A stretch of DNA of 10,501 nt from a virus. Under the pieces are notes generated by a model. That model worked only from the letters and a program-made list of their open reading frames with translations. It searched no databases and was not told the DNA's origin. Of the stretch, positions 1 to 10,451 are shown piece by piece. Positions within the stretch are counted from its first letter, which is position 1, and each line of letters opens with the position of its first letter. A program made the translations under genes and the position numbers. The stretch is taken from the UHGV virus genome UHGV-0105382; one strand, given 5' to 3'.

Positions 1-10
1 ATCTTCTTTG

Positions 11-37
11 CCCTCCAATGTGAGGGAAATTTTTTTG
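11..37 (+). terminator. Possible intrinsic terminator hairpin (CCCTC / GAGGG stem, 7-nt loop, then AAATTTTTTT)
   Basis: Seen in sequence: 5-bp GC-rich inverted repeat at 11-15 and 23-27, followed by a T7 run. Short stem and window-edge position limit confidence. Confidence 0.3.
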
Positions 38-49
38 ACGGAGTGAACG

Positions 50-298
50 ATGATAAAAACTGATTACCCTGCAGAGCTTAAACAAAAAGTAATAACAGCA
101 ATTAAATGCTCTTTTATCTCATGTCGTACAGATGAAGAACGATATGTCGTTGAGTGTGCAATTGTCGAGTTTCTCACAGCGATGGAATTTACCGCTGCAG
201 AATCAATAGATGTATTAAAGCAATCAGACGGAAATGATATTGAAACGGATGATGTTATTGACCGACTAATAAAATCATTCGAAGAAGAAATAGAGTAG
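50..298 (+). CDS. Hypothetical small acidic protein (82 aa, about 20 Asp/Glu against 9 Lys/Arg)
   Basis: ORF with GGAG at 40-43 six nt before the ATG. Sits upstream of the cIII-like gene, where lambda carries ral/ea10. No family recognised. Confidence 0.6.
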   Translation: MIKTDYPAELKQKVITAIKCSFISCRTDEERYVVECAIVEFLTAMEFTAAESIDVLKQSDGNDIETDDVIDRLIKSFEEEIE

Positions 299-381
299 CC
301 GCCTGAGCGCGGCTTTACCGCATACCAATAATGCTTCACGAGAGGCATTTTCGTTATGCAATCAAATATAAGGAGTTACCC

Positions 382-516
382 ATGATGCACTTTCAGCTCG
401 CGGGTAGCGGCGTCATGTCCGCTTTCTACCCGCACGAATCTGAATTATCACGCCGAGTTAAACAATTAATCAGAGCAGCAAAGAAACAACTGGAGGCGTT
501 ATGCGCAATGAAATAG
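382..516 (+). CDS. cIII: cIII-like protein (putative FtsH inhibitor), 44 aa
   Basis: AGGAG at 371-375, ATG at 382. The translation MMHFQLAGSGVMSAFYPHESELSRRVKQLIR resembles my recollection of lambda cIII (MQYAIAGWPVAGCPSESLLERITRKLR). Position relative to the Kil-like and recombination genes matches lambda. The longer ORF from 331 has no RBS. Confidence 0.55.
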   Translation: MMHFQLAGSGVMSAFYPHESELSRRVKQLIRAAKKQLEALCAMK

Positions 517-653
517 CCATTAATCACCAGATGCTTCGTGCTGCACAAAACAAAGCAGTAATAGCCCGATTTATTGGTGATTCAAAAATGTGGCTTGAAG
601 CAAATAAAGCGATGAAATCAGCTATCAACCTTCCATGGTATCGCAGGAAATGA
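501..653 (+). CDS. kil: Kil-like small protein (putative host cell-division inhibitor), 50 aa
   Basis: ORF not in the supplied track (under 60 aa). GGAGG at 492-496, ATG at 501, 16-nt overlap with the cIII-like 3' end as in lambda. The motif AAQNKAVIARFIGDSKMWLEANKAMK resembles what I recall of lambda Kil (AIQTKFTIATFIGDEKMFREAVDAYK). Assignment rests on memory and synteny. Confidence 0.45.
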   Translation: MRNEIAINHQMLRAAQNKAVIARFIGDSKMWLEANKAMKSAINLPWYRRK

Positions 654-808
654 GTTTTACAGATAACTGGTCAGACGAAGAATTCATTCGTCAGATGAAA
701 GAATTAATCGGTAACGAAGGAGATATTCATGTCACTTGCAACCACAGTGAAGGAGAGCAAGTTACAGAGACGCATGTACACGCAGAAAGCTCTCTGGTAT
801 CGCCATAA
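650..808 (+). CDS. Hypothetical small protein (52 aa)
   Basis: ATG overlaps the Kil-like stop (ATGA), suggesting translational coupling. No independent RBS and no recognisable family. Confidence 0.3.
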   Translation: MSFTDNWSDEEFIRQMKELIGNEGDIHVTCNHSEGEQVTETHVHAESSLVSP

Positions 809-907
809 TGGCGACCGCGAAGGAATGCGGGTATGCCTTAATTTGTCCAGAGTCGAAGTATTAAACCAGCGTTATTTCCTTGGGCCATGTCCATTCTGAG
901 GTGAATT

Positions 908-1615
908 ATGGATTTGAATAAATTCGATGAGCCATTCAGCCCTGAAGATATCGAATGGCGAATACAGCAAAGCGGTAAAACACGCGATGGCAAAGTGTGG
1001 GCTATGGTGCTGGCTTATGTCACGAACCGGGCAATCATGAAACGCCTGGACGATGTTTGCGGCAAAGCAGGATGGCGCAATGAATACCGCGATATTCCCA
1101 ACAACGGCGGCGTTGAATGCGGCATATCAATCAGGATTGATTCCGAATGGGTAACCAAATGGGATGCTGCTGAAAACACGCAGGTAGAAGCCGTCAAAGG
1201 TGGTCGTTCCGGTGCAATGAAGCGCGCTGCCGTTCAGTGGGGAATCGGTCGGTATCTGTATAACCTTGAGGAAGGTTTCGCACAAACATCTCTCGATAAA
1301 AAGCAGGGGTGGCACAGGGCAAAACTGAAGGATGGAACAGGATTTTACTGGCTCCCTCCATCGCTGCCGGGCTGGGCAATGCCAGTATCAGATAACAAAC
1401 CATCACCAGAAAATACCAACCAGAAATCTCCATCGGTTGACTGCGAGCAAATCCTGAAAGACTTCAGCGATTATGCGTCAACAGAAACTGACAAGAAAAA
1501 ACTCATCGAGCGTTATCAGCGTGACTGGCAATTAATGGCTGGCAATGAGGATGCGCAGGCTAAATGCGTTCAGGTAATGAACATCAGAGTTAACGAGCTA
1601 AAACAGGCGGCATAA
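908..1615 (+). CDS. Rad52-like single-strand annealing protein (phage recombinase, Sak/Rad52 type)
   Basis: TGAGGTG RBS at 897-903. Translation carries a Rad52-type core (GWRNEY...GGVECGISIRIDSEW...KRAAVQWGIGRYLYN), comparable to the Rad52 KRSLRGFGNALGNCLY region. Stop is directly followed by the SSB start (TAAATG). Confidence 0.75.
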   Translation: MDLNKFDEPFSPEDIEWRIQQSGKTRDGKVWAMVLAYVTNRAIMKRLDDVCGKAGWRNEYRDIPNNGGVECGISIRIDSEWVTKWDAAENTQVEAVKGGRSGAMKRAAVQWGIGRYLYNLEEGFAQTSLDKKQGWHRAKLKDGTGFYWLPPSLPGWAMPVSDNKPSPENTNQKSPSVDCEQILKDFSDYASTETDKKKLIERYQRDWQLMAGNEDAQAKCVQVMNIRVNELKQAA

Positions 1616-2119
1616 ATGGCAAGCAGAGGCGTAAATAAGGTGATCATTATTGGTCGCCTTGGGCATGATCCAGAAATCAGATATTCACCATCAGGAACGG
1701 CATTTGCAAACCTTACAGTTGCTACGTCAGAACAGTGGCGTGATAAGCAAACTGGAGAGAAAAAGGAGCAGACGGAGTGGCACCGTGTGGTAATGAGCGG
1801 GAAACTGGCAGAAATTGCCAGCGAATATCTGCGAAAAGGCTCTGAGGTTTATCTTGAAGGCAAATTGCGGACAAGAAAATGGCAGGATCAAAGCGGACAG
1901 GATCGGTTCACTACCGAAATCATCGTGGGCGTTGGTGGAACTATGCAAATGATTGGTGGCAAGCAAGGAGGCAATGAACAGTCTTCACCTCAGCGAAATA
2001 ACGGTCAGCAACCTCAGCAGCAAGGGAATCACAGCGAACCACCTATGGATTTTGACGACGATATCCCCTTTGCACCAGTAACTCTCCCCTTCCCTCGTCA
2101 CGCTATTCACGCAATTTAA
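1616..2119 (+). CDS. ssb: Single-stranded DNA-binding protein (phage SSB) with a C-terminal extension past the DDDIPF tip
   Basis: N-terminal OB fold nearly as in E. coli SSB ([16 protein letters not shown]...TEWHRVV...), Gly/Gln-rich linker, conserved MDFDDDIPF motif, then 15 more residues ([15 protein letters not shown]) before the stop. Confidence 0.9.
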
Positions 2120-2127
2120 GGACTTAC

Positions 2128-2676
2128 ATGAATCACTTGATGGTTGACCTTGAAACAATGGGCAACGGGCCATACGCGCCAGTTATTTCTATTGGGGCGG
2201 TATTCTTTGACCCGAATACCGGAGAAACAGGAGAAGAGTTCTCGGTAAATATCTCGCTTGAGTCATCAATGCGATATCGGGCGCGTCCTGACGCTTCAAC
2301 GATTTTATGGTGGATGGAACAGAGTGAAGAAGCCAGAAAATCGCTAACCAGCAACACTCAGGAGCTTTCAACGGCTCTTTCATGGTTATCTGAATTCATC
2401 ATAAAGAACGCTAACCACAAATTCGTTCAGGTTTGGGGGAATGGAGCATCATTTGACTGCGTTATTCTCCGAAACAGTTATTCGCTGACAGGGCAGCCAG
2501 TTCCGTGGCAGTGGTGGAATGACCGCGACGTAAGAACAATCGTCGAGCTTGGAAAGGTAATAGGATTCGACCCTAAGCGAGATATGCCATTCAAAGGAAC
2601 TCGCCACAACGCGCTTGATGATGCCATCCACCAAGCCAAATACGTTTCAGCAATCTGGAAAAAATTAGCTCAATAA
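2128..2676 (+). CDS. DEDDh-family (DnaQ-like) 3'-5' exonuclease
   Basis: All three exonuclease motifs are visible: Exo I (MVDLETMG), Exo II (WGNGASFDCVIL) and Exo III (HNALDDAIHQ). AAGGA RBS sits just upstream of the ATG. Confidence 0.8.
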   Translation: MNHLMVDLETMGNGPYAPVISIGAVFFDPNTGETGEEFSVNISLESSMRYRARPDASTILWWMEQSEEARKSLTSNTQELSTALSWLSEFIIKNANHKFVQVWGNGASFDCVILRNSYSLTGQPVPWQWWNDRDVRTIVELGKVIGFDPKRDMPFKGTRHNALDDAIHQAKYVSAIWKKLAQ

Positions 2677-2692
2677 TCAACAGGAGAAAAAC

Positions 2693-2986
2693 ATGCCAGC
2701 GCCTCTGTATGGTGCGGATGACCCGCGCCGCTGTTCCGGCAAATCCGTATCGGAGGTGCTGGATAAATTCAGAAAAAACTACGACCTGATAATATCGCTA
2801 CCGAAGGAAACGAAAGAGGAAAAGGAATTTCGCCATTGTATATGGCTTGCAGAGAAAGAAGAACGCGAGCGAATTTACCAGACATCAATCCGACCATTCC
2901 GCAAAGCCGCATATACCCACTTCCCTGAAATTGACCCGCGTCTGCGTAATTACCGCTCACGCTATGGCGCTATCAGTAATGACTGA
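2693..2986 (+). CDS. Hypothetical protein (97 aa)
   Basis: AGGAG at 2683-2687, ATG at 2693. No recognisable motif. Basic and Glu-rich. Confidence 0.6.
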   Translation: MPAPLYGADDPRRCSGKSVSEVLDKFRKNYDLIISLPKETKEEKEFRHCIWLAEKEERERIYQTSIRPFRKAAYTHFPEIDPRLRNYRSRYGAISND

Positions 2987-2996
2987 GGAATTAACA

Positions 2997-3287
2997 ATGA
3001 AAACAATGAAGCTAAACATCGGCCTCGGCAAATACGTTATTACCGGAACCAAACACGACCTGATTCTTAGCGAAAGAGGAATTATCAAAGAAGGCGAGAA
3101 TGCAGGGAAAGAAACACTAAGCCGTATCGGTTATTACAGCAAGTTTGAGCATCTGGTTAAAGAGTTATGCAACCGTGAACTCCTGTTATCTCAGGCGCAG
3201 ACGCTACAGGATATTCAGCAGCATATCGAGACATTAGGTGTGTCACTTAGCATGGCTATTGACCAGTTCGTTGAGAGTAAATCATGA
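2997..3287 (+). CDS. Hypothetical protein (96 aa)
   Basis: GAGGA at 2985-2989, ATG at 2997 (MKTMKLNIG...). The track's longer ORF from 2847 overlaps the preceding gene in another frame and has no RBS, so the internal start is preferred. Confidence 0.6.
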
Positions 3288-3451
3288 GAGGACTTGCATA
3301 CAATCCCGGCATTCTTCCGGCAGAAATGATTATTCGCCAACGCGTAAAGCCAATGCCATCGAGAGAGGAATTGCTTAAGAGAAAGAGTTTCGGTTCTGTT
3401 AATGACAACAAATATCTGAATGCGATGTTGCGCAAAGGAGGCAACCAATGA
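3284..3451 (+). CDS. Hypothetical small basic protein (55 aa)
   Basis: Not in the supplied track (under 60 aa). ATGA overlaps at both ends (3284-3287 and 3448-3451) and it exactly fills the gap between neighbours. Translation [55 protein letters not shown]. Confidence 0.4.
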
Positions 3452-3801
3452 GCAAGATTGACTATCAGGCACTGCGTGAAAAGGCAGAGAAAGCAACGTG
3501 TGGTGTGTGGTCGCTCGAATATGGAGAGAGCCGATTTGATTGTGATGATGCGCTAATTCATCGTGACGTTGTTGGATATCTTCCCATTTGCAGAATTGAA
3601 GGAGCGCATCCTGAAAGCGGTTTCGATGAAGATTTCCAAATGGAACAGCAGGCCAATGCTGAATTCATCGCCGCAGCCAATCCGGCTACTGTGCTGGCAC
3701 TACTGGATGAAAACGAAAGACTGTGTCGCGAGCTGATAGCTCGTAATGGTGAGATTGAAGGGCTTCGGAAGTGGGCAGAAGAACGGGAGATGCAACCATG
3801 A
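3448..3801 (+). CDS. Ead/Ea22-like protein (117 aa)
   Basis: AGGAGG at 3436-3441. N-terminal module ([18 protein letters not shown] ... [24 protein letters not shown]) recurs in the next gene and matches my recollection of the Ead/Ea22-like family of lambdoid early-left regions. Confidence 0.65.
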
Positions 3802-4727
3802 TGACTTTTACCAGCGAACAATTAGCTACCTTACGTAAGATAGCGCAACAGGCAACACAGGGCGAATGGCGTGCATTCATCTCGCCGGACACTGGTACAT
3901 ATGCGGTGCATACGCCGGGGGATGAACGTTGCGGAGACATTATCAAATGGCCTGGCTTTGACGACCAGAAAAATGCAGAGAACAACGCAGAATTTATCGC
4001 AGCTTTCAACCCTAAATTAGTGCAGACACTGCTGGATGAACGGGAAAGAAACCAGCAATACATCAAATCACGCGACCAGGAGAACGAGGATATTGCGCTA
4101 ACGGTAGGGAAGCTGCGCGTTGAGCTTGAGGAGGTGAGAGCAAAACTCAATGAACAACGCGAGTATTACGAGGGAGTAATCGCGGATGGAAGGAAGCACA
4201 TAGCAGAACTGGAAAAACAATGCGCCGAATGGGAGCGAAAAGCATTAAGCAACTTTGAAGAGTGTGCTGCGATGGCTGAACGTATCGAAGAGATGCAGAC
4301 AAAATCTGCACCAGATTCGTTTGGCATCATCGGTGAAAATATTCGAACACAGGATAATCGAATAACGTCAGATCCTATGTTTTGTGTGTATCAAAAGCGC
4401 GAAATCGTTGTTGATGCTGATTATGACTATGACCGGATTGTCTGGGTTGATGAAGATGGCAATGAAGCCAATAAACTCCAAAGTCGTCGTCTCGAACTAC
4501 TTCATGAAAACTTTCGGGAGCCACCAGAAAAATGGCGGCGCGTTGCTGTGAAAGATATTGATGAATTCGTTACCTGCTGTTTCACCGAACAGGGTTGTAA
4601 AGACTACCTGGCAGCCAATGGTCACAATCTTCGCTTGCCATTTATATATGTAAAAAGCGGTTTCAGGAACGCTGAATATATCGGCATAAGAAACTGGCTT
4701 GCTGGTATTCGCATCAAAGGAGACTGA
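3798..4727 (+). CDS. Ead/Ea22-like protein, long form (309 aa) with coiled-coil middle and distinct Cys-containing C-terminal domain
   Basis: GGGAGA at 3785-3790, ATG at 3798 overlapping the previous stop (ATGATGA). N-terminal module (EQLATLRKIAQQATQGEW ... NNAEFIAAFNPKLVQTLLDERER) is paralogous to the preceding gene. The track's GTG start at 3771 is less likely. Confidence 0.7.
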   Translation: MMTFTSEQLATLRKIAQQATQGEWRAFISPDTGTYAVHTPGDERCGDIIKWPGFDDQKNAENNAEFIAAFNPKLVQTLLDERERNQQYIKSRDQENEDIALTVGKLRVELEEVRAKLNEQREYYEGVIADGRKHIAELEKQCAEWERKALSNFEECAAMAERIEEMQTKSAPDSFGIIGENIRTQDNRITSDPMFCVYQKREIVVDADYDYDRIVWVDEDGNEANKLQSRRLELLHENFREPPEKWRRVAVKDIDEFVTCCFTEQGCKDYLAANGHNLRLPFIYVKSGFRNAEYIGIRNWLAGIRIKGD

Positions 4728-4728
4728 T

Positions 4729-4938
4729 ATGGCTATTGCCGCAAGTTACACCATGCATCTCTATTGTGATTGTCGCCAGTGTACGGAAGGTGTATATCCA
4801 GTGCCAGACTTCGGTGAGTATATCGGTACGTCATGGTCTGGTTGTGCAAAAGAGGCCCGTAAAGACGGGTGGCGAATAAGCAAAGACAAAACACGTACTT
4901 TTGCGCCCGGGCATAAAGTTTTGAGGATTAACACATGA
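4729..4938 (+). CDS. Hypothetical Cys-rich small protein (69 aa, C-x-C-x2-C ... C; possible zinc ribbon)
   Basis: AAGGAGA at 4717-4723, ATG at 4729. Stop overlaps the next start (ATGA at 4935-4938). Motif HLYCDCRQC plus a later WSGC. Confidence 0.55.
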   Translation: MAIAASYTMHLYCDCRQCTEGVYPVPDFGEYIGTSWSGCAKEARKDGWRISKDKTRTFAPGHKVLRINT

Positions 4939-5708
4939 CCACTATTACCAAAGAACGTATTGAATTGTTCATTAAAAATCCGCTTGAAAACGGGCTTACT
5001 CGTGGCGAACAAATGGAACTGGCACGAATTGCACTGGCATCACTGGAACGCGAACTGATTCGCCACGAGCATGCCAAATGGTCTGACTCCACATTTGGCT
5101 GCGTTGGCCCCATTGGTCCACTGAAACACCTCTCAAAAGAGGCTCTGGAAGCCGCAGCCGAACCAGACGATCTCAGCGAGTGGGCTGATATGCATTTCCT
5201 GTTGTGGGATGCACAGCGCCGTGCTGGCATCAGCGATGCTGAAATTACCGCTGCTATGGAAGATAAATTGAAGATCAACATGGAGCGCCAGTGGCCTGAA
5301 CCAAAAGATGGTGAGCCTCGCTTGCACATTAAAGAACCCGGCAACTCTCCGGTAATTCCGGATGGTTTATCCACGGTATGCGCTGAGGCTTATCAGGTTG
5401 TAGGAGTTATGGCAGATGCGCTTGGTGTATTCGGTGATGCAGCAGTACAGAAAGTTCTGGATAACCTGTCACAGCAAAAACTTGTTCACAGAGATGTGCT
5501 GCCGTTCTCGCTTCCGGTAACTCCGGATGGTTGGATAAGCTGTAGTGATCGAATGCCGAACGACGCGCAGTGGTGCGTAGTGAACACAGAATACGGGTAT
5601 TACGTGCAATGCTGGTCTGAAGGTCAAGGGTGGCTTGGTGATGATATCAGCATCCCTAAATGCGATGTAATCAATTGGATGCCTCTACCAGAACCGCCGC
5701 AGGGGTGA
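4935..5708 (+). CDS. Two-domain prophage protein: N-terminal DUF550-type (dATP/dGTP pyrophosphohydrolase-like) domain and C-terminal DUF551 domain
   Basis: GAGGA at 4923-4927. The C-terminus (GWISCSDRMP...WCVV...DVINWMPLPEPPQG) matches the DUF551 signature as I recall it (W..[SC].DRLP ... W ... HWMPLPEPP). The N-terminal half (EWADMHFLLWDAQRRAGISDAEITAAMEDKLKINMERQWPEP) resembles the MazG-like pyrophosphohydrolase domain often fused to DUF551. Family names are from memory. Confidence 0.7.
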   Translation: MTTITKERIELFIKNPLENGLTRGEQMELARIALASLERELIRHEHAKWSDSTFGCVGPIGPLKHLSKEALEAAAEPDDLSEWADMHFLLWDAQRRAGISDAEITAAMEDKLKINMERQWPEPKDGEPRLHIKEPGNSPVIPDGLSTVCAEAYQVVGVMADALGVFGDAAVQKVLDNLSQQKLVHRDVLPFSLPVTPDGWISCSDRMPNDAQWCVVNTEYGYYVQCWSEGQGWLGDDISIPKCDVINWMPLPEPPQG

Positions 5709-5774: not shown

Positions 5775-6017
5775 ATGTTCTCTCTGATTCAACGTGGTCA
5801 GATATACACCGATAGCGCTGGCTATCCAGTAAAAATCATTCGTAGTACTGATCACTCAGTATTCTTCAAGAGGATGGATGGCTATCCTGGAAGAGTGTGC
5901 ATCAGAAAATTCAATAATTTATTCGAACACATTGATCACAGAGAATATCACCAGATCCTGGCTGAAACAGAACAGGAGAACCATCTGAAAAAATTACGTG
6001 CTATGCAAAGGAGATAA
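5775..6017 (+). CDS. Hypothetical small protein (80 aa), possibly DUF4222-like
   Basis: GGGGA 7 nt upstream of the ATG. The pattern IQRGQIY.D..GYPVKII...DHSVFFKRMDGYPGRVCIRKF resembles small prophage proteins I recall under DUF4222; the family call is low confidence. Confidence 0.55.
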   Translation: MFSLIQRGQIYTDSAGYPVKIIRSTDHSVFFKRMDGYPGRVCIRKFNNLFEHIDHREYHQILAETEQENHLKKLRAMQRR

Positions 6018-6097
6018 ACCGGTAAAGGTGTTCGCGATAAAGGTGAATATCGGCAATGAATAACAATCCTCGAACTCGCGGGGATTTCTTTTATCTG

Positions 6098-6316: not shown

Positions 6317-6352
6317 TTGCGTGTAATTGCGGAGACTTTGCGATGTACTTAA
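6317..6352 (+). promoter_or_regulatory. pI-like cII-dependent promoter (TTGC-N6-TTGC box overlapping the xis start)
   Basis: TTGC at 6317-6320 and 6327-6330 with a 6-nt spacer, the direct-repeat architecture of lambda cII sites. The surrounding sequence (TTGCGTGTAATTGCGGAGACTTTGCGATGTAC) matches what I recall of the lambda pI/xis region. Confidence 0.5.
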
Positions 6353-6561
6353 CACTTCAGGAGTGGAACGCACGCCAGCGGCGCCCAAGAAGCCTTGAAA
6401 CAGTTCGTCGATGGGTACGCGAGTGCAGGATATTCCCTCCTCCGGTTAAGGATGGAAGAGAGTATCTGTTCCACGAATCAGCGGTAAAGGTTGACTTAAA
6501 TCGACCAGTAACAGGTAGCCTTTTGAAGAGGATCAGAAATGGGAAGAAGGCGAAGTCATGA
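6343..6561 (+). CDS. xis: Excisionase Xis (lambda-type, 72 aa)
   Basis: Translation MYLTLQEWNARQRRPRSLETVRRWVRECRIFPPPVKDGREYLFHESAVKVDLNRPVTG... is essentially the lambda Xis sequence as I recall it. GGAG at 6331-6334. 3' end overlaps the int start as in lambda. Confidence 0.95.
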   Translation: MYLTLQEWNARQRRPRSLETVRRWVRECRIFPPPVKDGREYLFHESAVKVDLNRPVTGSLLKRIRNGKKAKS

Positions 6562-7612
6562 GCGCCGGGATTTACCTCCTAACCTTTATATAAGAAACAA
6601 TGGATATTACTGCTACAGGGACCCAAGGACGGGTAAAGAGTTTGGATTAGGCCGAGACAGGAGGATAGCAATCACTGAAGCTATACAGGCCAACATTGAG
6701 TTACTCTCAGACAGCGGACGCAAATCACTGATAGACAGAATTAAAGGCGGTGACGCAATCACTCTTCATGTGTGGCTTGACCGATATGAAAGAATCCTCA
6801 CCGAAAGGGGGATCAGGCCGAAAACTCTACTCGACTACGCCAGCAAAATCAGGGCAATCCGAAGAAAATTGCCGGACAAACCGCTCACTGACATATCAAC
6901 GAAAGAAGTGGCAGCAATGCTAAACACCTACGTAGCAGAAGGTAAAGCAGCTTCCGCAAAATTAATCAGGTCAACCCTTGTTGACGTTTTTCGTGAAGCA
7001 ATAGCCGAGGGGCATGTGGCAACGAATCCGGTAACAGCAACCCGTACAGCAAAGTCAGAAGTAAGGCGCTCAAGGCTGACAGCTAATGAGTATGTCGAGA
7101 TTTACCATGCAGCCGAACCTCTCCCTATCTGGCTAAGGCTGGCGATGGATTTGGCCGTCGTTACAGGGCAGAGAGTCGGCGATTTGTGCAGAATGAAATG
7201 GTCAGACATAAACGACAACCATCTTCACATTGAACAGAGTAAAACAGGGGCTAAACTCGCCATTCCGCTAATGCTAACGATTGACGCGCTCAATATCTCA
7301 TTGGCTGATACACTACAGAAATGCAGGGATGCCAGCAGCAGTGAAACTATAATCGCATCAAAGCATCACGATCCGCTTTCCCCGAAAACAGTATCAAAGT
7401 ATTTTACAAAGGCGAGAAATGCATCTGGACTCTCATTTGATGGAAACCCGCCAACATTCCATGAACTGCGTAGCCTGTCAGCGAGGCTATACCGGAACCA
7501 GATTGGCGATAAGTTTGCTCAACGTCTTCTCGGGCATAAATCAGATTCAATGGCGGCGCGGTATAGGGACAGCCGTGGACGGGAATGGGACAAAATTGAA
7601 ATCGACAAATGA
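6539..7612 (+). CDS. int: Tyrosine integrase, lambda Int family (357 aa)
   Basis: N-terminal arm-binding domain matches lambda Int (MGRRRSHERRDLPPNLYIRNNGYYCYRDPRTGKEFGLGRDRRIAITEAIQANIEL). Catalytic residues are placed as in lambda (VVTGQRVGDL, HELRSLSARLY, LLGHKSDSMAARYRD, C-terminus REWDKIEIDK). The central core-binding region differs from lambda. Confidence 0.95.
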   Translation: MGRRRSHERRDLPPNLYIRNNGYYCYRDPRTGKEFGLGRDRRIAITEAIQANIELLSDSGRKSLIDRIKGGDAITLHVWLDRYERILTERGIRPKTLLDYASKIRAIRRKLPDKPLTDISTKEVAAMLNTYVAEGKAASAKLIRSTLVDVFREAIAEGHVATNPVTATRTAKSEVRRSRLTANEYVEIYHAAEPLPIWLRLAMDLAVVTGQRVGDLCRMKWSDINDNHLHIEQSKTGAKLAIPLMLTIDALNISLADTLQKCRDASSSETIIASKHHDPLSPKTVSKYFTKARNASGLSFDGNPPTFHELRSLSARLYRNQIGDKFAQRLLGHKSDSMAARYRDSRGREWDKIEIDK

Positions 7613-7706: not shown

Positions 7707-10451
7707 GTGAATTTAACCCTGACCCGAAGACTCTGGATGGGCTTTGCCCTGATGGCGCTGTTAACCCTGACCAGTACCCTGGTGGGATGGTACAACCTGC
7801 GCTTTATCAGCCAGGTGGAAAAAGACAACACTCAGGCATTGATTCCTACCATGAATATGGCGCGCCAGTTGAGCGAAGCCAGCGCCTGGGAACTTTTCGC
7901 CGCGCAGAACCTGACCAGTGCCGATAACGAAAAGATGTGGCAGGCGCAGGGGCGAATGCTCACCGCACAAAGCCTGAAGATTAATGCGTTGCTGCAAGCA
8001 TTACGGGAACAAGGTTTTGATACCACCGCTATTGAACATCAGGAGCAGGAGATCTCCCGTTCGTTACGTCAGCAAGGGGAACTGGTGGGACAGCGTTTGC
8101 AACTGCGCCAGCAACAACAGCGACTCAGTCAGCAGATAGTCGCCGCCGCCGATGAAATCGCACGCCTGGCGCAAGGTCAGGCGAATAATGCGGCAACTTC
8201 CGCCGGAGCGACCCAGGCCGGGATTTACGATTTGATCGAACAACATCAGCGTCAGGCCGCAGAAAGTGCACTCGATCGGCTGATTGATATCGATCTTGAG
8301 TATGTTAACCAGATGAATGAACTGCGCCTTAGCGCCCTGCGGGTGCAGCAAATGGTGATGAATCTGGGGTTGGAACAGATCCAGAAAAATGCGCCAACGC
8401 TGGAAAAGCAGCTCAATAATGCGGTGAAAATTCTGCAACGTCGGCAAATACGCATTGAAGATCCGGGAGTTCGTGCTCAGGTCGCAACAACGTTAACTTC
8501 CGTTAGCCAATATAGCGATTTGCTGGCGCTGTATCAGCAGGACAGTGAAATCAGCAATCGCCTGCAAACTCTCGCCCAAAATAACATCGCCCAGTTCGCG
8601 CAGTTTAGTAGCGAAGTCAGTCAGTTGGTCGACACCATTGAGCTGCGTAATCAGCACGGACTGGCGCATCTGGAAAAAGCCAGTGCACGCGGGCAATACA
8701 GCCTGTTATTGCTGGGGATGGTTTCACTTTGCGCACTGATTCTGATCCTCTGGCGCGTGGTTTATCGCTCAGTCACGCGTCCACTTGCCGAACAAACGCA
8801 GGCGCTGCAACGGCTGCTGGACGGTGATATCGACTCCCCTTTTCCGGAAACCGCTGGCGTGCGGGAGCTGGATACCATCGGGCGGCTGATGGATGCGTTT
8901 CGCAGCAGTGTTCATGCACTGAATCGCCACCGCGAACAGCTGGCGGCGCAGGTCAAAGCGCGTACAGCTGAATTGCAGGAGCTGGTGATAGAACACCGAC
9001 AGGCACGGGCGGAAGCAGAAAAAGCCAGCCAGGCAAAATCGGCGTTTCTGGCGGCGATGAGCCATGAGATCCGCACACCGCTGTACGGTATTCTTGGCAC
9101 CGCGCAACTGCTGGCAGATAACCCCGCACTTAATGCCCAGCGTGATGATTTGCGGGCAATTACCGACTCTGGTGAATCGTTGCTGACCATCCTCAACGAT
9201 ATTCTCGATTATTCGGCTATCGAAGCAGGCGGCAAGAATGTTTCGGTCAGCGATGAACCCTTTGAACCGCGCCCGCTGCTGGAAAGTACCCTGCAATTAA
9301 TGAGCGGAAGGGTGAAAGGTCGCCCGATTCGCCTGGCAACAGAAATTGCCGACGATGTACCGACTGCGTTAATGGGCGATCCGCGGCGTATTCGTCAGGT
9401 CATTACCAACCTGTTGAGCAACGCCCTGCGTTTTACTGACGAAGGACAGATCGTTTTACGTAGCCGCACTGATGGCGAGCAATGGCTGGTCGAAGTGGAA
9501 GACAGCGGCTGCGGTATTGATCCCGCGAAACTGGCTGAAATCTTCCAGCCATTTGTTCAGGTTAGCGGCAAACGCGGCGGCACCGGGCTGGGGCTGACCA
9601 TCAGTAGCCGTCTGGCCCAGGCGATGGGCGGCGAACTGAGCGCCACCAGCACGCCGGAAGTTGGAAGCTGTTTTTGTTTACGCTTGCCGTTACGTGTTGC
9701 CACTGCACCCGTGCCAAAAACAGTCAATCAGGCGGTGCATCTGGACGGTTTACGTTTGCTGTTAATTGAAGATAACCCGCTAACCCAGCGAATTACCGTT
9801 GAGATGCTGAACAACAGTGGGGCGCAGGTCGTTGCGGTAGGAAATGCCGCGCACGCAATAGAGACGTTGCAAAATAGCGAACCGTTTGCTGCCGCACTGG
9901 TGGATTTTGATCTGCCCGATATCGACGGCATTACGCTTGCCCGGCAACTGGCACAGCAATATCCGTCGCTGGTTTTGATTGGCTTTAGCGCTCATGTCAT
10001 CGACGAAACGTTGCGCCAGCGTACCAGTTCATTATTTCGCGGGATTATCCCTAAACCGGTGCCGCGTGAAGTGCTCGGTCAGTTACTGGCGCACTATCTC
10101 CAACTGCAAGTCAATAACGATCAACCGCTGGATGTATCGCAACTCAATGAAGATGCTCAGTTGATGGGGACGGAGAAGATCCACGAATGGCTGGCATTAT
10201 TTAAACAACATGCCCTGCCGCTTCTCGATGACATCGGCATCGCCCGCTCCAGCCAGAACAGCGAAAAAATAAAGCGTGCCGCACATCAGCTAAAAAGCAG
10301 TTGCTCGAGTCTGGGAATGCGTAGCGCCAGCCAGCTATGCGCACAACTGGAGCAGCAGCCATTATCTGCCCCCCTTCCACACGAAGAAATTACACGCAGT
10401 GTTGCCGCTCTGGAAGCATGGTTGAATAAGAAAGACCTGAACGCGATTTGA
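7707..10451 (+). CDS. torS: TMAO-responsive hybrid sensor histidine kinase TorS (914 aa from the GTG at 7707; 904 aa if started at the ATG at 7737)
   Basis: Translation matches E. coli TorS as I recall it ([22 protein letters not shown]...). Two transmembrane segments flank a periplasmic domain, followed by an H-box ([11 protein letters not shown], His codon 9063-9065), G-boxes (DSGCGI, GGTGLGL), a receiver domain (LLIEDNP; Asp codon 9903-9905 in [10 protein letters not shown]) and a C-terminal HPt (AAHQLKSS, His codon 10284-10286). Counting from the internal ATG these residues are His443, Asp723 and His850, the phosphorelay positions as I recall them for TorS. Confidence 0.95.

What the first reader, a model, noticed from the sequence alone, without database searches (positions are those of the whole stretch)
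50..298. Strongly acidic 82-aa protein in the ral/ea10 position of the early-left operon
The protein has a net charge near -11 with an Asp/Glu-rich C-terminus. Small acidic early phage proteins are often DNA mimics or anti-restriction and anti-defence factors, and lambda carries its restriction-alleviation gene ral at the equivalent position upstream of cIII. No similarity to Ral was seen, so this may be an uncharacterised anti-defence protein.
Basis: inference. Interest (0 to 1): 0.45.

Follow-up and report, generated by a model that had tools for sequence, protein, structure and literature searches.

The report
Uncharacterised acidic early protein in lambda's ea10 slot
The 82-residue acidic protein is a real, conserved phage gene of unknown function that sits where lambda has ea10, right after an intact ral gene, so it does not replace Ral, and the database label "anti-restriction protein" comes from an annotation error.

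Summary
The ORF at 50-298 is real: 82 aa, net charge -11, pI 4.27, a good Shine-Dalgarno site and purifying selection. It belongs to a small family (phrog_14587). The family occurs in E. coli lambdoid prophages and phages (HK446 gp36, Kapi1_017, ECP1_057), in Pantoea-type prophages and in virulent Skatevirus siphophages. A confident AlphaFold model (pLDDT 92.6) shows a four-helix bundle, with conserved acidic residues on helices 3 and 4. It has no sequence or specific fold relative in Pfam, NCBIfam, PADLOC, PDB or BFVD.

The gene is a one-gene cassette of about 285 bp. It lies between the LPR1 sRNA/tL2a terminator and the cIII leader, which is lambda's ea10 slot. A contig identical to the window over 4,295 bases carries an intact ral 128 nt upstream, and 8 of 28 related loci also have an intact Ral. 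The "anti-restriction/ral" label traces to phage ECP1, where a deleted ral remnant lies next to the gene.

No experiment addresses its function. The most likely role is a delayed-early inhibitor of a host or defence protein. Type I anti-restriction is unlikely. It is a modest candidate, not a discovery.

The parts
1..36 (+). 3' end of an LPR1-type Hfq-dependent sRNA with the tL2a intrinsic terminator (hairpin 11-26, T-run 30-36). This is the left boundary of the cassette.
   Evidence: It is nearly identical to lambda's ral-ea10 intergenic region and to HK446, Kapi1 and HK97 (alignment A4; A3). The terminator scan finds it and the hairpin folds at -7.8 kcal/mol. LPR1 and tL2a are described in bioRxiv 10.1101/2024.10.31.621285.
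40..43 (+). Shine-Dalgarno sequence GGAG, 6 nt upstream of the ATG
   Evidence: Read directly from the sequence. It is conserved in HK446, ECP1 and Kapi1.
50..298 (+). Gene for the 82-aa acidic four-helix protein (phrog_14587; equals HK446 gp36, Kapi1_017, ECP1_057 and WP_000597940.1). The stop codon is included.
297..314 (+). GC-rich hairpin AGCCGC-CTGAGC-GCGGCT directly after the stop codon. It is the right recombination junction, shared with phages that carry ea10 (mEpX2, lambda) or gp17 (H-19B) in this slot.
   Evidence: Alignment A3, fold at -10.3 kcal/mol, megablast junctions at 297 and 320.

Best explanation
The gene encodes a stand-alone, cytoplasmic protein made in the delayed-early phase. 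It is transcribed only when N-modified RNA polymerase reads through the tL2a terminator from pL. It folds into a compact four-helix bundle. Helices 3 and 4 and the loop between them carry a conserved acidic surface (D49, E51, E65, D67, D68, D71, E79).

The most likely mode of action is stoichiometric binding to a basic, probably nucleic-acid-binding, surface of a host or rival-element protein, which blocks that protein. The target would be a defence, repair or nucleoid protein other than a classical type I R-M enzyme, and the effect would help lytic growth.

Shown here: the gene is real and under selection; the fold is predicted with high confidence; the acidity is conserved; the cassette anatomy is defined; the gene is silent in a lysogen; it is shared by temperate and virulent phages; and it co-occurs with Ral.

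Inferred: that it acts as a protein inhibitor, that the acidic face is the functional surface, and what kind of target it has.
For: - Expression. The gene lies 13 nt after the tL2a U-tract, inside the pL operon, with no promoter-like site of its own upstream. The identical Kapi1_017 is not expressed in a lysogen, like kil and cIII.
- Accessory cassette. It is a single-gene insertion of about 285 bp relative to HK97, and an allelic alternative to Ea10 (mEpX2, lambda) and gp17 (H-19B) between the same flanks. Its G+C content is 35%, against 46% for the prophage.
- The other occupants of the slot are unrelated but equally acidic: Ea10 has net -14 and pI 4.28, and gp17 has net -14 and pI 4.10.
- The family occurs in lambdoid siphophages, a P22-like podophage, Pantoea-type prophages and virulent Skateviruses, always as a small stand-alone gene in early or accessory operons. 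This argues for a function in lytic growth generally, not in lysogeny control.
- The AlphaFold2 model has pLDDT 92.6 and pTM 0.81 and shows four helices. Acidic positions are 87-98% conserved on H3 and H4, the family median net charge is -12, and the only conserved basic residues, K11 and K13, lie on H1.
- There is no enzymatic, DNA-binding or membrane signature in any library.
- The same operon is an experimentally shown conflict hot spot: HK446 Gp33 triggers OLD and gp27 (Oad2) inhibits OLD.
Against: - No experiment exists for any member.
- Acidity alone does not discriminate in this operon. Several conserved acidic residues sit at helix N-termini, where they could simply stabilise the fold.
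- The HK446 genomic library screen for OLD inhibitors recovered gp27, not gp36.
- Skateviruses with homologues show no notable resistance to the tested R-M systems or to Old.
- An invariant Cys25 and Ala17 are not explained by a simple charge-mimic model.
Confidence: 0.4

Rival explanations
1. It is a phage-development accessory factor and is not involved in defence. For example, it may modulate host replication, recombination or proteolysis, or the lysis-lysogeny decision, in the way its neighbours cIII (FtsH inhibitor), Kil (FtsZ inhibitor) and LPR1 (up-regulates DnaN) act on housekeeping host targets.
For: The gene sits between LPR1/tL2a and cIII-kil, and all of these act on core host functions. 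It replaces Ea10, whose role is 'not fully understood'. In Pantoea-type prophages it is invariably paired with a small zinc-finger protein near xis/int. In Skateviruses it heads an operon with a ParB/KorB-type HTH protein and RusA.
Against: It is present in only about 1% of complete E. coli genomes and is freely swapped for unrelated genes in sibling phages, so no core step depends on it. It is shared with virulent phages that have no lysogeny decision. No partner gene is conserved across the three contexts.
Confidence: 0.25
2. One reading: it is an anti-restriction protein, a DNA mimic like Ocr or ArdA or a functional analogue of Ral, that protects unmodified phage DNA from type I (or other) restriction-modification systems.
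For: The protein is small, strongly acidic and early. PHROG, several RefSeq records and ECP1 label it 'anti-restriction'. In Bas77 it is co-operonic with a C-5 cytosine methylase.
Against: - The label is an artefact. ECP1 has an unannotated, internally deleted ral remnant about 180 bp upstream of the gene. The same record also mislabels cIII.
- There is no homology to Ral.
- An intact Ral, 100% identical to lambda's, lies just upstream in a contig identical to the window. Ral also co-occurs in 8 of 28 related loci and in a plasmid-borne prophage. A second type I countermeasure next to Ral would be redundant.
Confidence: 0.1
3. It is a prophage-encoded defence or superinfection-exclusion factor (a moron) that protects the lysogen.
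For: It is a low-G+C cargo-like cassette bracketed by hairpins. P22-type gp17, which occupies the same slot in other phages, is often labelled 'superinfection exclusion protein'.
Against: It is not expressed in the Kapi1 lysogen. It lies downstream of a terminator inside the repressed pL operon, with no promoter-like site. It is present in virulent phages. PADLOC finds no match. It has no membrane segment.
Confidence: 0.05
4. It is a non-functional or spurious ORF.
For: None beyond its small size and the absence of annotation.
Against: There is a Shine-Dalgarno site. Full-length homologues across genera keep the same length and have invariant residues. pN/pS is about 0.24. The alignment gives a confident fold.
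Confidence: 0.02

Closest known systems
Lambda Ea10 (122 aa, gene ea10 between tL2a and cIII)
   Same: It occupies exactly the same slot, starting a few bases after the LPR1/tL2a U-tract and ending at the same GC hairpin before the cIII leader. It is also a small, strongly acidic, N-dependent, non-essential early protein (net -14, pI 4.28) of unknown function.
   Different: There is no detectable homology (hhalign probability 0.16%). The length differs (122 vs 82 aa).
Lambda Ral (restriction alleviation, 66 aa)
   Same: It is a small early-left accessory gene between N and cIII. Databases have given the 82-aa protein Ral's name.
   Different: The two are unrelated in sequence. Ral is basic (net +3, pI 8.8). 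Ral lies upstream of LPR1/tL2a and co-occurs with the 82-aa gene.
P22/H-19B gp17 (103 aa)
   Same: It is another alternative occupant of the same slot with the same right junction. It is equally acidic (net -14, pI 4.10) and is likewise spread over temperate and large virulent phages.
   Different: No sequence similarity was seen in any search. The curated P22 record calls it 'unknown', while others call it 'superinfection exclusion protein'.
Acidic DNA-mimic inhibitors (T7 Ocr, ArdA, T7 Gp5.9, lambda Gam)
   Same: They are small, early, very acidic, largely helical proteins that block DNA-binding host enzymes. This is my own knowledge of these families. The size and charge density are comparable.
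   Different: No sequence or fold match to any of them was recovered. The oligomeric state and charge spacing could not be examined. The phage already carries Abc2 and a Gp33-like protein, both linked to RecBCD.
Four-helix cap of B12-binding photoreceptor regulators (AerR, CarH)
   Different: Identity is only 6%, there is no Pfam signal for that domain, and there is no adjoining B12-binding Rossmann domain. Foldseek finds nothing significant. It is a generic up-down bundle resemblance.

Membership tests
phrog_14587 (PHROGs v4, labelled 'anti-restriction protein') | Full-length match to the family profile | tested here: met
   E = 2.2e-48, residues 1-82 on profile positions 1-82. Membership is secure, but the functional label is not.
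Lambda Ral family | Sequence homology to Ral | tested here: not met
   No Pfam Ral hit at E <= 0.1. hhalign of the 54-sequence family profile against lambda Ral gives probability 0.07%.
Lambda Ral family | Location between N and the LPR1/tL2a element | tested here: not met
   The gene is downstream of tL2a. Intact ral occupies its own slot upstream in L021, which is identical to the window, and in 8 of 28 loci.
Lambda Ral family | Alleviates type IA restriction by enhancing modification | not testable with these tools
   This needs plating assays of unmodified phage on EcoKI hosts.
Lambda Ea10 family | Sequence homology to Ea10 | tested here: not met
   hhalign probability 0.16%. tblastn of Ea10 against the window finds nothing.
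DNA-mimic anti-restriction proteins (Ocr/ArdA type) | Strongly negative protein with conserved acidic surface residues | tested here: met
   Net -11 and pI 4.27. The family median is -12, and E65, D67, D68 and D71 are 87-98% acidic.
DNA-mimic anti-restriction proteins (Ocr/ArdA type) | Fold or sequence related to a known mimic | tested here: not met
DNA-mimic anti-restriction proteins (Ocr/ArdA type) | Acidic side chains spaced like B-DNA phosphates, usually on a dimer | not testable with these tools
   Model coordinates are not exposed and no multimer prediction is available.
DNA-mimic anti-restriction proteins (Ocr/ArdA type) | Carrier phages resist type I R-M | tested here: inconclusive
   The BASEL paper says Skatevirus isolates, whose homologues are about 41% identical, are markedly sensitive to R-M systems. 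This is indirect, and no data exist for the E. coli prophage version.
Colicin DNase immunity proteins (Im7/Im9) | Significant sequence similarity | tested here: not met
Known anti-phage defence components (PADLOC) | Match to any defence-system model | tested here: not met
   0 families at E <= 1.

The most novel reading that the evidence does not exclude
The slot just downstream of the LPR1 sRNA/tL2a terminator may be a cassette site where lambdoid phages exchange unrelated, equally acidic inhibitors: Ea10, gp17 and this family. Under this reading, the 82-aa protein founds a new four-helix family of DNA-mimic-like anti-defence proteins. The family is shared with virulent Skateviruses and would neutralise a defence or nuclease system for which no phage inhibitor is yet known.
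Probability: 0.25. Interest if true: 0.6.

Novelty: new member of a known kind. Interest (0 to 1): 0.33.

Why it matters
If the protein proves to be an inhibitor of a host defence or DNA-handling protein, it would add a new small fold to the anti-defence repertoire. It would also give a first functional handle on the long-unexplained ea10 slot of lambda-like phages.

The immediate practical value is a correction. The label 'anti-restriction protein' now propagated by PHROG-based annotators for phrog_14587 rests on a neighbouring-gene mislabel in one phage record. It should not be used as evidence, for instance in surveys that count anti-defence genes.

Tried and rejected
- Ral homology: rejected.
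- Ea10 homology: rejected.
- Identity with the experimentally characterised HK446 proteins: the gene is gp36, not Oad2 (gp27) and not the OLD trigger Gp33.
- Colicin Im7 lead from phmmer: not significant, and lost with the family profile.
- EF-hand-like reading of the 'DGxDxETDDxID' motif: the spacing does not fit the canonical loop (inspection output).
- Defence-system component: no PADLOC hit.
- Plasmid leading-region anti-defence island: the only two plasmid hits are a lambdoid prophage inserted in an IncF plasmid.
- A partner gene conserved across contexts: none was found. The zinc-finger neighbour is specific to the Pantoea-type subfamily, and Bas77_46 is specific to Skateviruses. Two metagenomic variants fuse the Skatevirus gene to its downstream neighbour, which is too thin to interpret.
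- Literature: nothing by PHROG id, accessions, locus tags or peptide strings. The protein is not in the Silas accessory-gene screen supplements or the machine-learning anti-defence preprint.
- Rfam finds no family in the window. The LPR1/tL2a assignment therefore rests on alignment to lambda.

Full report
**Observation**

The window is the early-left (pL) arm of a lambdoid prophage, ending at the host gene torS. In order, on the + strand, it contains:
- the 82-aa ORF (50-298)
- cIII (382-516) and kil (501-653)
- two small overlapping genes (650-808 and 729-899)
- a Rad52-type annealing protein, SSB, a 3'-5' exonuclease and Abc2
- DUF5405 and DUF2737 proteins, two Ead/Ea22-like proteins, and a dATP/dGTP pyrophosphohydrolase-DUF551 protein
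- DUF4222, Xis and a lambda-type Int
- TorS

The ORF encodes 82 aa with 20 acidic and 9 basic residues, giving net -11 and pI 4.27. The C-terminal half is the most acidic part. GGAG lies 6 nt before the ATG. The ORF has 35% G+C, against 46% for the prophage and 54% for the host flank. Strong acidity is common in this operon, however: 4 of 19 genes have net charge per residue of -0.10 or lower.

**The gene is real**

The protein is identical in phages HK446 (HK446_036), Kapi1 (Kapi1_017) and ECP1 (ECP1_057). The gene is present in 58 of 5,426 complete E. coli genomes, where RefSeq calls it WP_000597940.1, hypothetical protein. An exhaustive HMMER search of 1.84 billion representatives found only 17 relatives. 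A profile search raised this to 52 clusters. All members are 72-122 aa.

A 54-sequence alignment shows invariant A17 and C25, and near-invariant E40, A44, L56, G61, D67 and D71. Against a 68%-identical E. coli relative, pN is 0.19 while pS is saturated at 0.79. Acidity is a family trait, with a median net charge of -12.

**Fold**

The single-sequence AlphaFold2 model was poor (pLDDT 59). With the alignment, the model is confident (pLDDT 92.6, pTM 0.81) and shows four helices: 7-21, 28-44, 49-58 and 64-81. The conserved acidic positions lie at the start of helix 3 (D49, E51, E54), in the H3-H4 loop and along helix 4 (E65, D67, D68, D71, E79). The only conserved basic residues, K11 and K13, lie on helix 1.

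No related family was found in any library:
- Pfam, NCBIfam and PADLOC give nothing significant.
- PDB sequence searches with the protein or the profile give nothing. A weak colicin Im7 hit at E = 0.23 disappears with the profile.
- Foldseek against the PDB finds nothing with E below 1.
- BFVD returns only the family's own Skatevirus members.

No known DNA mimic or anti-restriction fold was recovered. Model coordinates are not exposed, so the charge geometry could not be analysed.

**Anatomy of the locus**

Aligning the region with sibling phages shows that the gene is a discrete cassette. HK97 has the same ~110-nt upstream sequence and the same terminator hairpin, and then runs directly into the cIII leader. 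Here, about 285 bp are inserted between them, comprising the SD, the ORF and a trailing GC hairpin at 297-314. mEpX2 and H-19B share the right junction at about 297, but they carry a 97.5%-identical lambda Ea10 and a P22-type gp17 instead.

The upstream element is nearly identical to lambda's ral-ea10 intergenic region. A 2024 preprint shows that this region encodes the Hfq-dependent sRNA LPR1, which ends at terminator tL2a. Window 1-36 is thus the 3' end of an LPR1-type sRNA plus tL2a. The ORF begins 13 nt after the U-tract, exactly where ea10 begins in lambda.

All 28 E. coli-type viral loci surveyed have LPR1 immediately upstream and cIII immediately downstream. The identical Kapi1 gene is undetectable in lysogen RNA-seq, like kil and cIII. 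These facts imply delayed-early expression that depends on N antitermination. That last step is inferred by homology with lambda.

**Relation to Ral**

The family profile has no similarity to Ral (hhalign probability 0.07%) or to Ea10 (0.16%). Ral also co-occurs with the gene:
- IMG/VR contig L021 is identical to window 1-4295 with no mismatches. It carries an intact ral, 100% identical to lambda's, ending 128 nt before window position 1.
- 8 of 28 related loci have an intact Ral upstream, and 3 have an internally deleted remnant.
- A prophage inserted in an IncF plasmid shows the order Ral family protein, the 82-aa gene, then cIII.

The gene is therefore an alternative to ea10 and not a replacement for ral. 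One caveat applies: the window's own upstream sequence is not visible, so the presence of ral there rests on the identical contig.

**Origin of the 'anti-restriction' label**

PHROGs labels phrog_14587 'anti-restriction protein', and PHROG-derived RefSeq annotations repeat this. The only primary record with such a name is ECP1, which calls the gene 'antirestriction protein ral'. ECP1 carries an unannotated ral remnant (Ral residues 6-16 and 46-66) about 180 bp upstream of the gene. The same record labels the true cIII 'hypothetical' and gives the name 'cIII' to a different gene. The label is best explained as a neighbour mis-transfer (inference). It is not evidence of function.

**Other contexts**

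- Pantoea-type prophages. The homologue is still co-oriented in the early-left operon, but it lies between the recombination genes and xis/int. It is always followed by a 68-aa zinc-finger gene.
- Virulent Skatevirus siphophages, for example BASEL Bas77. The homologue (~41% identity) is the first gene of a short divergent operon. That operon also holds a ParB/KorB-type HTH protein, a C-5 cytosine methylase and RusA.
- No neighbour is conserved across all contexts.
[quoted passage not shown] This counts against a broad anti-restriction role for the homologues.

**Related experimental work**

A 2026 preprint on P2 OLD used HK446. It found that Gp33 triggers OLD and that gp27 (Oad2) inhibits it, and it calls the region a conflict hot spot. 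gp36, the protein studied here, was not identified. The protein is absent from the Silas accessory-gene screen. No paper mentions it by accession, locus tag, PHROG id or peptide string.

**Interpretation**

The evidence fits a stand-alone, delayed-early accessory protein that acts by binding another protein through its conserved acidic helix 3-helix 4 face. The likely target is a host or rival-element DNA- or RNA-handling protein. The three unrelated occupants of this slot are all strongly acidic: Ea10 (net -14), gp17 (net -14) and this protein (net -11). That suggests non-orthologous replacement of analogous functions, but the function of none of the three is established.

I give this reading 0.4. 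The alternatives are:
- a non-defence developmental role: 0.25
- type I anti-restriction: 0.1
- a lysogen-protecting moron: 0.05
- a spurious ORF: 0.02

**Verdict**

This is a genuine, narrowly distributed and uncharacterised phage protein family with a confidently predicted small helical fold, sitting in a well-defined swap site. It is a reasonable but unproven anti-defence candidate. The specific link to Ral and restriction is not supported. Interest is modest, at 0.33. I rate it a new member of a known kind, namely small acidic early accessory proteins.

Noticed in passing
window 1-36 (continues upstream of the window; see L021 1062-1182, L003 about 5930-6036): This is the 3' end of a near-identical copy of lambda's Hfq-dependent sRNA LPR1 with the tL2a terminator. 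The element is conserved next to every E. coli-type copy of the gene (28 of 28 loci). Rfam 15 has no family that detects it.
   Followed up: partly
window 650-808 (+): This 52-aa acidic protein (net -9) is 88% identical to HK446 Gp33, which a 2026 preprint shows is sufficient to trigger the P2 OLD abortive-infection tRNase. The window has no homologue of the OLD inhibitor Oad2 (HK446 gp27), so this prophage is predicted to be OLD-sensitive.
   Followed up: partly
L001 (phage ECP1, KY979108) 2291-2370, 2550-2798, 2882-3016, 3229-3399: There are annotation errors in the ECP1 record. An unannotated, internally deleted ral remnant is present. The neighbouring 82-aa gene is labelled 'antirestriction protein ral'. 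The true cIII is labelled hypothetical, and a different 56-aa gene is labelled cIII. The first error appears to have seeded the PHROG label for phrog_14587.
   Followed up: yes
slot between tL2a and the cIII leader: window 37-320; L006 837-1205 (lambda ea10); L017 1699-2010 (H-19B gp17): Three unrelated proteins alternate in this slot and all are strongly acidic: Ea10 net -14, gp17 net -14 and this protein net -11. P22-type gp17 is also spread over temperate and large virulent phages. This may be non-orthologous replacement of one function.
   Followed up: partly
L010 5001-5452, L013 5001-5453, L050-L056 about 4001-4455: In the Pantoea-type subfamily, the acidic protein is always followed, 3-20 nt downstream, by a 63-69-aa Cys-rich protein (CHYC...FCS.EC motif) that resembles a treble-clef zinc finger. 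This may be a subfamily-specific two-gene module.
   Followed up: partly
proteins P0031 (122 aa) and P0058 (85 aa), Skatevirus-like metagenomic contigs: These are variants in which the Skatevirus homologue is fused in frame to the small acidic protein encoded immediately downstream (Bas77_0046-like). They may reflect a functional link or may be assembly or deletion artefacts.
   Followed up: no
window 650-808 and 729-899 (+): These two conserved small genes overlap by 80 nt in different frames, as with HK97 gp42.1 and gp42. PHROGs labels both 'recombinase', with no supporting Pfam domain.
   Followed up: no
window 4935-5708 (+): This is a 257-aa fusion of a dATP/dGTP pyrophosphohydrolase domain with a C-terminal DUF551 domain in the ea region of the prophage. 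Nucleotide-pool enzymes in this position may be relevant to defence systems that deplete nucleotides or signal with them.
   Followed up: no
window 6343-7612 and 7707-10451: A lambda-type Xis and Int (with an Arm-binding domain) directly abut the host sensor kinase gene torS, which places the prophage attachment site next to torS.
   Followed up: no
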